Positions 20,266-44,675 of a stretch of DNA of 64,000 nt are shown here, piece after piece. The stretch's first letter is position 1, and each line of letters starts with the position of its first letter. The notes beneath the pieces were generated by a model. It saw only the letters and a list, made by a program, of their open reading frames with translations. It was not told where the DNA came from and searched no databases. The DNA is from Paraspadella gotoi (Eukaryota > Animalia > Chaetognatha), in assembly GCA_051294375.1 (NCBI GenBank), contig CM119267.1, positions 23,924,111 to 23,988,110 on the forward strand, read 5' to 3'. The position numbers were made by a program, and so were the translations under genes.

Positions 20266-20329
20266 ATGGCGACATTTAGGCTGAGACGTTTCTTGGCCGT
20301 CATTTGGATCTTCACGATTTTGACAAGAA
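20266..20329 (+). CDS. Gene C exon 1: signal peptide
   Basis: MATFRLRRFLAVIWIFTILTR, donor gtacgt, phase 1; joins (R)ALIVSA-TEKGDK, with an AxA-like cleavage site just before the collagen. Confidence 0.7.
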
Positions 20330-23300
20330 GTACGTTTCACAGCGGACCAAAGCTTTATTTTAATATATCTTTTTCTTTTCAAAAGTCATAGTCGATATAA
20401 CGAAATGTAAAAAAAATCAACGTTGAAATTTATAAAAATATAAGTATTAATATTAATTATGATAAAAATTATTAGTATTAATATTAATATATTAATAATA
20501 TTAATAATAATATTAATACTTTATAAGTATTAATATTAATATTTGTGCGTTGAATTTAAATAAATCAAGATAGAAGCATTTTCAAAACAAGAACGAAGTA
20601 ATAAAAAAAATAGTTCAATTGTAAAAAAAAAAGCTGTTAACAAACAAAATTAAAAAAAGCCTTACATTTTCCAGGAGCTCTCATTGTCAGCGCTACTGAG
20701 AAAGGGGACAAAGGAGATCAGGGAGACAAGGGTGACAAGGGAGACATAGGAGACCAAGGAGATAAAGGGAATAAAGGAGACCATCAAGGGAGAAAGGTGA
20801 CAAAGGAGACATGGGAAAAATAGGAGATCAAGGAGATTAAAGGGATCAATGGAGACCAGGGAGACAAAGGCGACAACGGAGACAAAGGGAACAAAGGGAC
20901 TATGGAGAATAAGGAAACAAAGGAGACCAGGGAAACAGAGGTGACAAAGGAGACTTAAGGAAGCAAAGGAGACCAAGGAGATAAAGGGAACAAAGGAAAC
21001 CAGGGATACAAGGGTGACAAAAGGAGACATAGGAAACAAAGGAGACCAAGGAAGATAAAGGGAACAGAGGAGATCAGGGAGACAAGGTGACAAAGGAAGA
21101 CCAGGAGACAAGGGTGAAAAAGGAAACCAGGGAGACCAGGGTAACAAAGGAAGAAATAGGAAACAAAGGAGACCAAGGAGATAAAGGGAATAAAGGAGAC
21201 CAAGGAGACAAAGGTGAACAAAGGAAGACCAGGGAGACAAGGGCGACCAAGTGAGAAAAAGGAAACAAAGGAAACCAAGGAGATAAAGGAGCAAAGGAGA
21301 ATCAGGGAGACAAGGGCGACCAAAGGTGACAAAGGAAACATGGGAGATAAAGGGAAACCAAGGAGACCAGGGAACAAGGGTGACAAAGGAGACTTAGAAG
21401 CAAAAGGAGATCAAGGAGATAAAGGAAACAAAGGAGACCATGGAGACAAGGGGGAAAAAGGAGACCCAGAAGCAAAGGAGACCAAGGAGATAAAGAAACA
21501 AAGGACCACCAGGGAGGACAAGGGCGACCAAAGGAGTCAAAGGAACAATAGGAGACCAAGGATATAAAGGAGCAAAGGGATCAGGAGACAAAGGCGAACA
21601 AGCAACAAGCGAAACAAAGGAGCATCAAGGAAATAAAGGAACAAAGGAGACCAGGGAAACAAGGCAACCAAGGGAGATTAAAGGGAATAAAGTTGGGAAC
21701 AAGGCAGATAAGGGAACAAGGAGACCATGGATGGAGAAAGGGAGACCAAGGGGACAAAGGAGGCAAAGGAAGACCAAGGGATAAATTGGAACATTGGGAG
21801 ATCAGGGAGACCAAGGGTGAAAAAGGAGACACAGCGCAGGCAAAGCGAAACACCAATGGGATAAAGGGAACAAAGGAGACGCAGGGTGGAACCAATGGTG
21901 AAAAAGGAGACATATGGAAGCAAGGGAGACCAAGGAAATAAAGGGGACAAAGGAGAAGCCAGGGTGACCAGGTTAAAAAGGAGACATAGGAAGCAAGGGA
22001 TGACGCAAGGATATAAAGGGAACAAAGGAAACCAGGATACAAGGGTGATAAAGGAGAACATAGGAAACAAAGGAGACCAGGAGATTTAAAGGGAACAAGG
22101 GAGAATCAGGGAGACAAGGGGTGACAAAGGACACAAAAGGAAACAAAGGAAGATCAAGAAGATAAAACCAGGGAGACAAGGGTGACAAAGGAGACATAGG
22201 AAACCAAGGAGATAAAGGGTATAAAGGAGACCATGGAGACAAGGGTGACAAAGGAGACATTGGAAACAAAGGAGACCAGGGAGATAAAGGGAATAAAGGT
22301 GACCAGGGAGACAACGGTGACAAAGGAGACAGAGGAAACAAAGGAGACCCAGGAGATAAAGGGAACAAAGGAGACCAGGGAGACATGGGTGACAAAGGAG
22401 ATCTAGGAAACAAAGGAGACCAAGGAGGTAAAGGGAACAAAGGAGACCAGGGAGACAAGGGTAACAAAGGAGACCAGGGGAACAAGGGTGACAAAGGAAA
22501 CATAGGAAACAAAGGAGAACAAGGATATAAAGGAAATAAAGGAGATCAGGGAGACAAGGGTGACAAAGGAAACCAGGGAGACAAGGGTGACAAAGGAGAC
22601 ATAGGAAACAAAGGAGACCAAGGAGATAAAGGAAATAAAGGAGACCATGGAAACAAGGGTGACAGAGGAGACATAGGAAACAAAGGCGACCAAGGAAATA
22701 AAGGAAAAAAAGGAGATCAGGGAGACAAGGGTGACAAAGGAGACATAGGAAACAAGGGAGACCAAGGAGATAAAGGGAATAGAGGAGACCATGGAGACAA
22801 AGGTGACAAAGGAGACTTAGGAAACAAAGGAGAACATGGAGACAAGGGTGACAAAGGAGATACAGGAAACAAAGGAGACCAAGGAGATAAAGGGAATAAA
22901 GGAGACCAGGGAGACAAAGGTGACAAAGGAAACAGAGGAAATAAAGGAGACCAAGGGGATAAAGGGAATAAAGGAAACCATGGAGACAAGGGTGACAAAG
23001 GAGACCAAGGAGATAAAGGAAACAAAGGAGACGAGGGAGACAAGGGTGACCAAGGAAACAAAGGAAACAAAGGAGACCAAGGAGATAAAGGGAATAAAGG
23101 AGACCATGGAGACAAGGGTGACAAAGGAGACCATGGAGACAAGGGTGACAAAGGAGACATAGGAAACAAAGGAGACCAAATGGAGACAAGGGTGACAAAG
23201 GAGATATAAGGAAACAAAGGAGACCAGGGGATAAAGGAATAAAGGAGACCATGGAAGACAAGGGTGACAAAGGAGAATAGGCAACAAAGGCAGAGCAAGG

Positions 23301-44300: not shown

Positions 44301-44675
44301 GACGAATGTGCCAGCCCCGCCAACCACGACTGCCACGCTCACGCCACCTGCGTCAACGAGAAACTCAGCTTCTCCTGCGTCTGCAACGCTGGATACAAGG
44401 ACGGCAGCGATCCGCGCGGAGCCGGACGGAGCTGCGTCGTCGACAACGGAGAATTGACGATCGAGGAGAAGCTGGCCAAAGTCAACGAAACGCTTTTTTC
44501 AGTCCGCGACCAAGTCGATTCCAATGACATCCGGGTCGGCGACCACATCGACTCGTCCACCATCATGATCGTCGTCCTCTTCGTCGTCGTCTTTTGCCTC
44601 GTTATCGCCGTCGTCGGTCAAATGTATTGGATAAGAAAAAAGAGTAACGAAGATCAGTATTTTAACTACGCTTAG
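20266..44675 (+). CDS. Gene C: 13-exon type I membrane protein, SP - giant collagen - ZP - Sushi - EGF-Ca - SEA - EGF-Ca - TM (~4,270 aa as assembled)
   Basis: Exons 20266-20329, 20675-31251, 31364-31593, 32775-32897, 33355-33499, 34139-34237, 34381-34569, 35517-35656, 35763-35909, 36093-36339, 37295-37527, 40203-40455, 44296-44675. All are GT-AG with matching phases, and the 11 post-collagen exons give one open 728-aa frame. Confidence 0.85.
20675..31251 (+). CDS. Gene C exon 2: ~10.6 kb Gly-X-Y collagen exon; frameshifts at ~20790-22360, ~23180-23600, ~26260-26390 and 28818-28900
   Basis: Acceptor ttttccag at 20674. Continuous [15 protein letters not shown] triplets (ORFs 22385, 23536, 27654). 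Ends GATGQAG with donor gtagaa at 31252. Confidence 0.9.
31364..33499 (+). CDS. Gene C exons 3-5: ZP-N-like subdomain
   Basis: ..FTKCRVDSDVVEMCVFVLDK..GGCTV.. / ..ELIRFCVDAQACALQ / ..TNYTTFSATLKV..RPVGCRF. The Cys/beta-strand spacing and terminal C-x-aromatic fit ZP-N, and it lies directly before a recognisable ZP-C. Confidence 0.65.
32017..32700 (+). mobile_element. TRIM (miniature non-autonomous LTR retrotransposon) with a tRNA-like A/B-box segment in its LTRs
   Basis: Direct repeats 32017-32294 and 32416-32700, each TG...CA. The 121 bp internal region begins c-TGGTGAGCC (PBS-like) and ends ggagggca (weak PPT-like). GTAC target-site duplication at 32013-32016 and 32701-32704. Confidence 0.85.
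34139..35909 (+). CDS. Gene C exons 6-9: ZP-C subdomain and basic cleavage site
   Basis: LTAWVKLY..KVTLGQSLILEVDV..FQLI..NCVPD..RMIWDVFAFQGS..LKLTATIVVCLDNKSPCRDTCSAARRRS carries the ZP-C hallmarks LY, V.LG..L..EV, LI, F.F and VC..C..C..RRR. Confidence 0.8.
36093..36339 (+). CDS. Gene C exon 10: EHP-like strand and Sushi/CCP domain
   Basis: ATVPLYVV, then C..IKDG..C..C.HECPKGFLLSG..QTC..W..PTC; strong donor gtaagt. Confidence 0.9.
36742..36948 (-). mobile_element. tRNA-derived SINE-like element, copy 1
   Basis: ~205 bp, alignable end to end with 41373-41581; the minus strand has an A-box-like tggcgcaggagg and a degenerate B-box. Confidence 0.7.
37295..37527 (+). CDS. Gene C exon 11: EGF-Ca domain and N-half of SEA
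   Basis: IDECQQENACTGNKDCTDTHGSHICTCP..C, then YDSAMADKTSPEFLNAKSVIEPE (SEA motif Y...L.D..S.EF). Confidence 0.9.
37540..38575. mobile_element. MITE-like element interrupted by HINE family 1
   Basis: Ends cagagttgg / ccaactcag with internal aaaaccc/gggtttt arrays; the gggtttttttt-aaaaccc palindrome is split by the HINE. A related end lies at 40050-40090. Confidence 0.5.
37854..38551 (-). mobile_element. Helentron-associated (HINE/DINE-1-like) family 1; other copies 46761-49588 (-), 54110-54897 (+), 55669-56336 (-), 56487-57264 (-)
   Basis: Subterminal inverted repeats gtcggatctgc/gcagatccgac, 5' partial inverted repeat, (GTCC)n microsatellite, internal ~185 bp tandem subrepeats, 3' stem-loop tgtttgctcaaac and T-rich ends. 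Confidence 0.8.
39329..39949 (+). mobile_element. HINE-like family 2; other copies 54895-55425 and the split copy 46893-46985 + 48240-48383
   Basis: 5' atcgtcgcaa..ttgcgacgat hairpin, 3' ttgcgacgat plus cttatgctttaag stem-loop, and shared core tttatgattaaatttgggtgtatgaagct. Confidence 0.75.
40203..40455 (+). CDS. Gene C exon 12: C-half of SEA domain
   Basis: LKKHCE..CVIEILNIR..SGVLIDYRV..QLRFAIE..LGLDVNSIIIV; phase 0 in and phase 1 out, matching its neighbours. Confidence 0.8.
41366..41581 (-). mobile_element. tRNA-derived SINE-like element, copy 2
   Basis: Minus strand ggccattggtgccggagg..ttcccaa..ggggttctagcc resembles a tRNA head and ends in an (ACA)-type tail. Confidence 0.7.
43451..43724. 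mobile_element. Palindromic MITE-like element
   Basis: Nested inverted repeats tgaagagttgcag/ctgcaactcttca and tgtaatagagagacatttt/aaaatgtctctctattaca. Confidence 0.6.
44296..44675 (+). CDS. Gene C exon 13: EGF-Ca, heptad stalk, TM helix and 13-aa tail
   Basis: [67 protein letters not shown]; tail RKKSNEDQYFNYA*; AATAAA at 44872. Confidence 0.92.

What the first reader, a model, noticed from the sequence alone, without database searches (positions are those of the whole stretch)
20266..44675. Giant collagen fused to a ZP-Sushi-EGF-SEA-EGF membrane anchor: candidate new apical-matrix system
Seen: a phase-consistent splice (31251 to 31364) joins ~1,170 Gly-X-Y triplets to a ZP module, followed by CCP, EGF-Ca, SEA, EGF-Ca and a C-terminal TM. 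Known: ZP modules (uromodulin, tectorins, cuticlins, ZP1-4) polymerise into filaments after release at a basic site. Known membrane collagens (XIII, XVII, XXIII, XXV) are type II, and collagens normally end in COLFI, NC1 or C1q domains. I know no protein combining these modules. Inference: ZP filaments carrying triple-helical rods of about 1 um (~0.29 nm per residue), possibly cross-linking three ZP subunits each, forming a cuticle, glycocalyx, mucus or egg-coat mesh with a mucin-like SEA/EGF stub.
Basis: partly seen in the sequence, partly recalled or inferred. Interest (0 to 1): 0.92.

Follow-up and report, generated by a model that had tools for sequence, protein, structure and literature searches.

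The report
Giant collagen fused to ZP module
An animal gene splices a very long, almost proline-free collagen onto a likely ZP (egg-coat-type) filament module and a membrane anchor, and its product is predicted to be cut loose at the cell surface and to build a mesh that carries collagen rods nearly a micrometre long, a pairing of two matrix systems normally made by separate proteins.

Summary
The fusion is real. One spliced contig (3,617 nt) from a run guessed to be RNA joins the last ~38 Gly-X-Y triplets to the next nine exons, and its offsets match my exon model to the base. The ZP-C half is supported by a language-model search (0.94; PF00100 in 21 of 30 hits). Sushi, EGF-Ca and the TM are supported. 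ZP-N and SEA rest on motif patterns only. New here: a juxtamembrane coiled coil predicted to trimerise (0.59 vs 0.02); a helix with 4 Pro in 2,814 residues and 37% KGD/KGE; and a second such collagen gene from 53627. The assembly gives ~1,170 triplets, but only 938 are clean, there are ~42 frameshifts, and ~1.3 kb is a noisy duplicate. No collagen+ZP protein turned up in 7 paper searches or one domain-pair table; InterPro/CDART could not be searched. Best model (0.5): the membrane precursor trimerises, is cut at RRR|S, and its ZP modules polymerise into filaments bearing 0.8-1 um salt-bridged rods. Tissue and polymerisation are untested.

The parts
20266..20329 (+). Exon 1: start codon and signal-peptide-like segment (phase-1 intron follows)
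   Evidence: Basic N-terminus plus hydrophobic core, 11-residue hydropathy 2.83; GT donor. Link to the next exon not covered by RNA.
20675..31278 (+). Exon 2 (10.6 kb in the assembly): end of signal peptide, Gly-X-Y array of GDK/GDQ/GNK type, short linker; phase 1-1
   Evidence: PF01391 E 8e-129 on the last open run; 938 clean triplets with 4 Pro, 0 Cys and KG[DE] at 37% of junctions; ~42 frameshift steps; donor 31278 shown by the X9 contig
20880..22165 (+). Noisy near-copy of ~24690-25960 inside the array; likely an assembly patch (about 140 triplets may be counted twice)
   Evidence: Offset 3804-3811; 3-8 mismatches but 12-32 gap openings per 400 nt in the 400-nt pieces wholly inside the match
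31405..33486 (+). Putative ZP-N domain over exons 31364-31593, 32775-32897 and 33355-33499 (six Cys; C1/C2/C3/C4 read as residues 17, 64, 115, 159)
   Evidence: Cys positions, coordinates; spacing and motif match recalled. Atlas gave no usable hit; single-exon fold was all-beta, pLDDT 50, no match
34139..35858 (+). Linker with IHP-like strand, then ZP-C (exons 34139-34237, 34381-34569, 35517-35656, 35763-35909)
   Evidence: Exon 34383-34568 matches ZP-C clusters: score 0.94, 203 of 256 features, recognition 2517; Pfam exon-by-exon found nothing at E<=1
35865..35876 (+). Tribasic site RRR|S, candidate consensus cleavage site
   Evidence: Sequence; lies right after the last ZP-C Cys; P4 is Ala, so not the strict furin consensus
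36093..36119 (+). EHP-like strand
   Evidence: Position after the basic site and hydrophobic pattern; motif recalled, not tested
36132..36335 (+). Sushi/CCP domain
   Evidence: 31 hits at E<=0.001 among 1.84 billion proteins; 29 of 30 scanned carry PF00084, and P0031, scanned later, does too
37295..37413 (+). EGF-Ca-like domain 1
   Evidence: PF07645 E 0.0027, below cut-off; six Cys; exon spliced in X9
37426..40454 (+). Putative SEA domain (exons 37295-37527 and 40203-40455); no G-S-V-V-V autocleavage motif (motif recalled)
   Evidence: Pattern only. No Pfam hit; fold inconclusive; weak match to P0019 (67 of 2000 shuffles reach it)
44296..44438 (+). EGF-Ca domain 2
   Evidence: PF07645 E 4.9e-9, 36.7 bits, above the 27-bit cut-off
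44460..44537 (+). Juxtamembrane heptad coiled coil (a/d = I,L,V,L,V,V,N,V), predicted parallel homotrimer
   Evidence: 18 of 5000 shuffles reach the heptad score; three copies score 0.59 vs best control 0.02
44556..44675 (+). Transmembrane helix, 16-residue cytoplasmic tail, stop codon
   Evidence: Hydropathy up to 3.48; coordinates
44676..45735 (+). Inferred 3' UTR ending just after an AATAAA at 45727
53627..53687 (+). Second gene: signal exon (phase 1)
   Evidence: Hydropathy 3.41, GTAAGT donor
57392..64000 (+). Second gene: open GDK/GDQ/GEK collagen exon, at least 731 triplets, cut by the window end; C-terminus unknown
   Evidence: PF01391; 1 Pro in 2,193 residues, KG[DE] 43%, 9-triplet period

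Best explanation
The gene encodes a type I membrane precursor of about 3,600-4,300 residues in which a giant proline-free collagen is spliced to a likely ZP module; three chains are predicted to trimerise through a coiled coil beside the membrane, and a protease would then cut at RRR|S and release ZP modules that likely polymerise into filaments carrying 0.8-1 um collagen rods. Steps: (1) SHOWN: collagen tail spliced through the ZP-like exons to EGF1/SEA in one contig. (2) PREDICTED: the coil gathers three chains in register. (3) INFERRED: the helix zips from the ZP end and is held by Lys-Asp/Glu bridges rather than hydroxyproline. (4) INFERRED, by analogy with uromodulin: the cut removes the EHP and leaves a Sushi-EGF-SEA-EGF-coil-TM stub. 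(5) INFERRED: the ~26-residue linker (at most ~9-10 nm) lets one rod hold three consecutive subunits of a filament with a 6.25-nm rise, or subunits of different filaments, but not every second subunit (25-nm span). The product would be a bottle-brush or a cross-linked apical gel or coat.
For: Spliced contig with exact exon offsets; X9 depth follows exonic content in 20 of 20 bins compared. ZP-C match. Order ZP-C, basic site, EHP-like strand, membrane anchor as in uromodulin, where cleavage and membrane anchoring drive polymerisation (PMC7737619 passages; rise 62.5 A, twist 180 deg). Cys5 and Cys7 appear lost together, as reported for CUTL-28 and NompA (PMC7456536 passages; my residue assignment is by recalled pattern). 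Trimer prediction: 0.59 vs best of 3 controls 0.02, runs agree in at least 96% of contacts, pLDDT at least 76; the mark was reached by 21 of 30 solved pairs and 0 of 23 single chains (eukaryotes 17 of 29, and only 1 of 7 without an older relative). KGD/KGE bridges stabilise helices; they make up 3-6% of triplets in most collagens and KGD 13% in viral ones (PMC11923368 passages), against 37% here.
Against: ZP-N, the polymerising half (PMC1479692), has no tool support. The ZP-C call rests on one exon and one method, and shuffled proteins reach 0.9 in 4-10 of 100 trials. P4 of the basic site is Ala. In uromodulin the N-terminal region must rotate with ZP-N during assembly; a micrometre rod shared by three subunits would hinder that. 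Uromodulin precursors are dimers, which does not match a trimer. The coil sits ~650 residues from the helix end. Only three copies were folded, so a dimer or tetramer was not tested, and a pass may come from memory. Full collagen length is not shown by RNA.
Confidence: 0.5

Rival explanations
1. Membrane bristle: the trimer stays anchored (or is shed as single trimers), the ZP-like domains serve only as spacers or dimer contacts, and the rods form a micrometre-deep hydrated brush on the cell surface.
For: No strict furin site; trimer coil next to the TM; SEA/EGF/TM stub like that of cell-surface mucins (recalled); endoglin is a ZP protein lacking several ZP-C disulfides; rotation problem during polymerisation.
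Against: A basic site and EHP-like strand sit exactly where polymerising ZP proteins have them; uromodulin is cut by hepsin, not furin.
Confidence: 0.25
2. Minor cross-linker: the protein does not homopolymerise but is built sparsely into filaments of other ZP proteins, tying three filaments together and spacing them with its rod.
For: ZP3-type proteins polymerise only with partners (PMC1479692); sparse incorporation avoids steric crowding.
Against: No partner ZP gene was seen in the window's ORF list (read by eye), and no genome was held to look further.
Confidence: 0.13
3. The giant length is an assembly product (a mis-join between paralogous arrays, or a frameshifted or pseudogenised 5' part). 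The real protein is a modest collagen on a ZP-like anchor.
For: ~42 frameshifts and a duplicated noisy block; six N gaps in the window; RNA and DNA contigs link only the last ~350 nt of the array to the ZP exons; the 3' blocks resemble gene 2 (cosine 0.58-0.83) more than the 5' end of gene 1 (0.25-0.57).
Against: The last open run alone is 261 triplets, close to the ~330 maximum of human chains. Codon usage drifts gradually along the array. Clean runs have no stops. Gene 2 has 731 open triplets.
Confidence: 0.12

Closest known systems
Uromodulin / GP2 / tectorins / cuticlins (ZP-module matrix proteins)
   Same: Signal peptide, N-terminal payload, ZP module, basic site, EHP-like strand, membrane anchor
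   Different: The payload is a triple-helix-forming collagen of 940 or more triplets. About 330 residues (Sushi, EGF, SEA-like, EGF, coil) separate the cut from the TM. Cys5/Cys7 appear absent. No collagen-ZP pair appears among the 7 ZP pairs in table S21 of PMC4224354.
MACIT membrane collagens (XIII, XXIII, XXV), collagen XVII and type II nematode cuticle collagens
   Same: Membrane-anchored collagen released at a basic site; juxtamembrane sequence needed for trimer formation (PMC10538796 passages and a cited title)
   Different: Those are type II and fold N-to-C. This one is type I with the anchor at the C-terminus, is far longer, is nearly proline-free, and ends in a ZP-like module.
Viral and bacterial collagen-like proteins rich in KGD
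   Same: Low-proline (recalled), Lys-Asp-rich, very long Gly-X-Y arrays (up to 2,000 triplets in prokaryotes)
   Different: This is an intron-containing animal gene with animal extracellular modules. KG[DE] at 37-43% exceeds the 13% viral KGD figure. A protein search of phage records found no match, with the low-complexity filter on.
SEA/EGF cell-surface mucins and UMODL1 (recalled)
   Same: EGF-SEA-EGF-TM stub; SEA, EGF and ZP occur together in UMODL1
   Different: There SEA/EGF lie before the ZP module and there is no collagen; SEA is unconfirmed here.

Membership tests
ZP-module protein | ZP-C domain | tested here: met
   Atlas score 0.94, 203 of 256 features, 21 of 30 hits PF00100, 10 of the ten best share the family or clan; one exon, one method; Pfam on single exons negative
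ZP-module protein | ZP-N domain with Cys1-4 (1-4, 2-3; PMC1479692) | tested here: inconclusive
   Six Cys in plausible spacing; Atlas, Pfam and the fold of one exon gave nothing; the spliced domain could not be folded
ZP-module protein | ZP-C disulfides Cys5-7, Cys6-8, CysA-B | tested here: inconclusive
   Four Cys (275, 329, 336, 340). Read by recalled pattern as CysA-B kept, Cys5-7 lost, Cys6 shifted; such losses occur. No alignment to a ZP profile was possible.
ZP-module protein | Strict furin site R-X-K/R-R after ZP-C | tested here: not met
   A-R-R-R|S, P4 Ala. The site is not universal in the family (PMC13361971).
ZP-module protein | Basic cleavage site, EHP and membrane anchor in that order | tested here: met
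   RRR at 35865, hydrophobic strand at 36093 (EHP label recalled), TM at 44556
ZP-module protein | Polymerises into filaments | not testable with these tools
   Needs EM or biochemistry
Collagen / collagen-like protein | Long uninterrupted Gly-X-Y | tested here: met
   Four clean runs of 112, 294, 271 and 261 triplets; PF01391
Collagen / collagen-like protein | Forms a stable triple helix | not testable with these tools
   Inferred from KGD/KGE content
MACIT / type II membrane collagens | Cytosolic N-terminus with an N-terminal TM | tested here: not met
   Signal-like N-terminus and a C-terminal TM
Fibrillar, type IV or C1q-type collagens | C-terminal COLFI, C4 or C1q domain; Pro/Hyp-rich helix | tested here: not met
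   No such Pfam hit in the 11 C-terminal exons scanned singly; 4 Pro in 2,814 residues
SEA-domain mucin-like protein | SEA fold | tested here: inconclusive

The most novel reading that the evidence does not exclude
A hybrid matrix system in one gene family: three-armed nodes, each a micrometre-long collagen rod held by salt bridges without hydroxyproline, whose three ZP modules polymerise or pair after release from the membrane. The collagen sets the mesh spacing and the ZP filaments do the joining. It would be a type I membrane collagen that uses a ZP module in place of a propeptide, expanded as tandem genes with differently charged rods.
Probability: 0.4. Interest if true: 0.88.

Novelty: new variant of a known kind. 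Interest (0 to 1): 0.74.

Why it matters
Collagens and ZP proteins are the two main polymer systems of apical matrices, and in the best-studied case, the nematode cuticle, separate proteins supply them (PMC11304992 passages). One chain carrying both poses a testable question: how do a three-chain helix and a 180-degree ZP filament fit together? It also offers a natural animal test of whether Lys-Asp bridges alone can fold a helix about three times the length of human chains, which bears on collagen folding and on making collagens without prolyl hydroxylase.

Tried and rejected
- No genome was held, so gene 2's C-terminus and other family members could not be read.
- Word-index homolog searches with the first ZP exon, the EGF1/SEA exon and the Sushi alignment, all restricted to longer proteins, gave no hit (weak tests).
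- Metagenome scans with the Sushi alignment and the ZP-C exon confirmed no locus.
- PDB sequence searches: none for two ZP-C exons, only weak hits (E 0.19 or more) for the Sushi exon.
- Single-exon AlphaFold models (pLDDT 54 and 50) matched nothing: Foldseek had no E<=0.001, best Z 4.5 and 4.6. Half-domains without alignments are uninformative.
- No run is on record as RNA; X9 is a guess. The joint table showed 15 of 127 rows, none of them X9's splice joints, so the splices are read from the piece table, which showed 6 pieces of record 25. The other four exons follow from offsets and depth.
- Donor 31251 rejected. Intron-retaining read-through to 31508: no support in X9.
- No Rfam hit. Four look-ups of earlier findings were empty.
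- Paper searches for collagen with ZP listed no paper describing such a fusion. I saw listings and abstract starts only, except where passages are cited. File 1 of the PMC4224354 supplements was not searchable, I saw 19 of the 20 'zona' places in file 2, and bioRxiv supplements are closed.
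Full report
The locus. The window is animal genomic DNA with AT-rich introns, microsatellites and six N gaps. No whole genome is held. On the + strand a short signal-like exon (20266-20329) precedes a 10.6-kb Gly-X-Y exon. Eleven GT-AG exons from 31364 to 44675 then join into 728 open codons ending in a transmembrane helix and a short tail.

The junction. Nine public runs hold the stretch, and one (X9) is guessed to be RNA. Laid on 30900-37700, X9 gave one 3,617-nt contig at depth 70 covering 30908-31276, then 31362-31590, 33355-33498, 34379-34566, 36089-36339 and 37295-37527. 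Its record offsets equal the summed lengths of my ten exons to the base. Depth in 20 of 20 bins compared follows exonic content, with 0-1.2 in purely intronic bins. DNA contigs of X1, X3 and X5 run through the first intron. So the collagen tail (~38 triplets) is spliced to the downstream exons, with donor 31278. This is one contig of one run.

The collagen. The assembly holds ~1,170 nine-base units, but only 938 triplets lie in four clean runs. About 42 frameshift steps cluster in four patches. The block ~20880-22165 repeats ~24690-25960 with few substitutions and dozens of one-base indels, the profile I would expect of a raw long-read patch (inference). The true length is probably 940-1,170 triplets, or 0.8-1.0 um at 0.286 nm per residue (rise recalled); human chains reach 330 triplets (PMC11923368 passages). 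The helix has 4 Pro and no Cys in 2,814 residues; X is mostly Asp/Asn and Y mostly Lys/Gln, and KGD/KGE occurs at 37% of triplet junctions. The same paper gives 3-6% for most collagens and 13% KGD for viral ones, and shows these triplets form interchain salt bridges that slow unfolding. A second gene of the same layout starts at 53627, with at least 731 open triplets up to the window end.

The C-terminal modules. Only single exons could be sent to the search and fold tools, which weakens every test of a split domain. Pfam found EGF-Ca (second copy above cut-off, first below) and nothing for ZP, Sushi or SEA. The ESM Atlas placed exon 34383-34568 with ZP-C clusters (0.94; 203 of 256 features; 21 of 30 hits PF00100) and gave nothing usable for the first ZP-N exon. 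The 82-residue exon at 36093 hit 31 of 1.84 billion proteins; 30 of these 31 carry Sushi. Two unnamed ENA fragments, P0010 and P0028 (30% and 37% identical), share this exon's unusual insertion and may be the same exon in another animal; their context is unknown. ZP-N rests on six Cys and recalled strand motifs. In ZP-C, Cys5 and Cys7 appear lost together, as in CUTL-28 and NompA (PMC7456536 passages). A tribasic RRR|S follows the last Cys, then an EHP-like strand. SEA is inconclusive.

A trimer coil. Between the last EGF and the TM lies a 26-residue heptad repeat (18 of 5000 shuffles reach it; the window was chosen after a scan). Three copies fold as a parallel bundle through the a/d residues: 0.59 against a best control of 0.02, at least 96% contact agreement, pLDDT at least 76. 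The mark was reached by 21 of 30 solved pairs and 0 of 23 single chains; the calibration used two copies of microbial proteins, and a pass may be from memory. It supplies the chain-gathering element that a collagen without COLFI, NC1 or C1q would need (inference).

Mechanism. By analogy with uromodulin (PMC7737619 passages), cleavage of the anchored precursor would free the EHP and let ZP modules interlock head to tail at 6.25 nm and 180 degrees per subunit. A linker of ~26 residues allows one rod to hold three consecutive subunits or to bridge filaments. Against this: the payload must rotate during assembly, uromodulin precursors are dimers, ZP-N is unproven, and the site is not a strict furin site. 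I give the polymer model 0.5, a membrane brush 0.25, a minor cross-linker 0.13 and an inflated length 0.12.

Novelty. Seven full-text searches listed no collagen-ZP fusion (listings and abstract starts). Term searches in four ZP or matrisome papers showed none (passages). Table S21 of PMC4224354 lists seven ZP domain pairs, none with collagen. InterPro and CDART could not be queried, so an automatically annotated but undescribed case is not excluded. The parts are known; the architecture, topology, length and chemistry together appear new.

Noticed in passing
window 53627-64000 (+): Second giant collagen gene with the same phase-1 signal exon plus one huge exon. Its array has a 9-triplet (81-nt) period and is net acidic (-23 to -32 per 300 residues), whereas gene 1 is near neutral (-13 to +1).
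   Followed up: partly
P0010, P0028 (ENA contigs of 1,035 and 747 nt): Unnamed fragments resembling the EHP+Sushi exon, with the same insertion and exon end; possible orthologous exons in another animal.
   Followed up: partly
window 28899-31247 vs 57727-63999: Nine-base unit usage at the 3' end of gene 1 resembles gene 2 more than the 5' end of gene 1; this could be ancestral state, gene conversion or a mis-join.
   Followed up: partly
window ~32016-32700 and ~36720-36940: High-copy intronic elements with summed depth of 1e5-1e6 in two of the DNA runs, also present in X9.
   Followed up: no
window 49027-49322, 54311-54622, 55871-56168: A 156-159-nt tandem repeat family flanked by (TAAT)n and (GGAC)n tracts.
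   Followed up: no
window 31215, 31241, 35777: X9 differs from the window at three exonic sites: two synonymous and one Ala-to-Thr change at a collagen X position.
   Followed up: yes
window 22172-31247: The clean runs hold 7 RGD and 301 KGD motifs, which could give integrin-type binding (recalled; untested).
   Followed up: no
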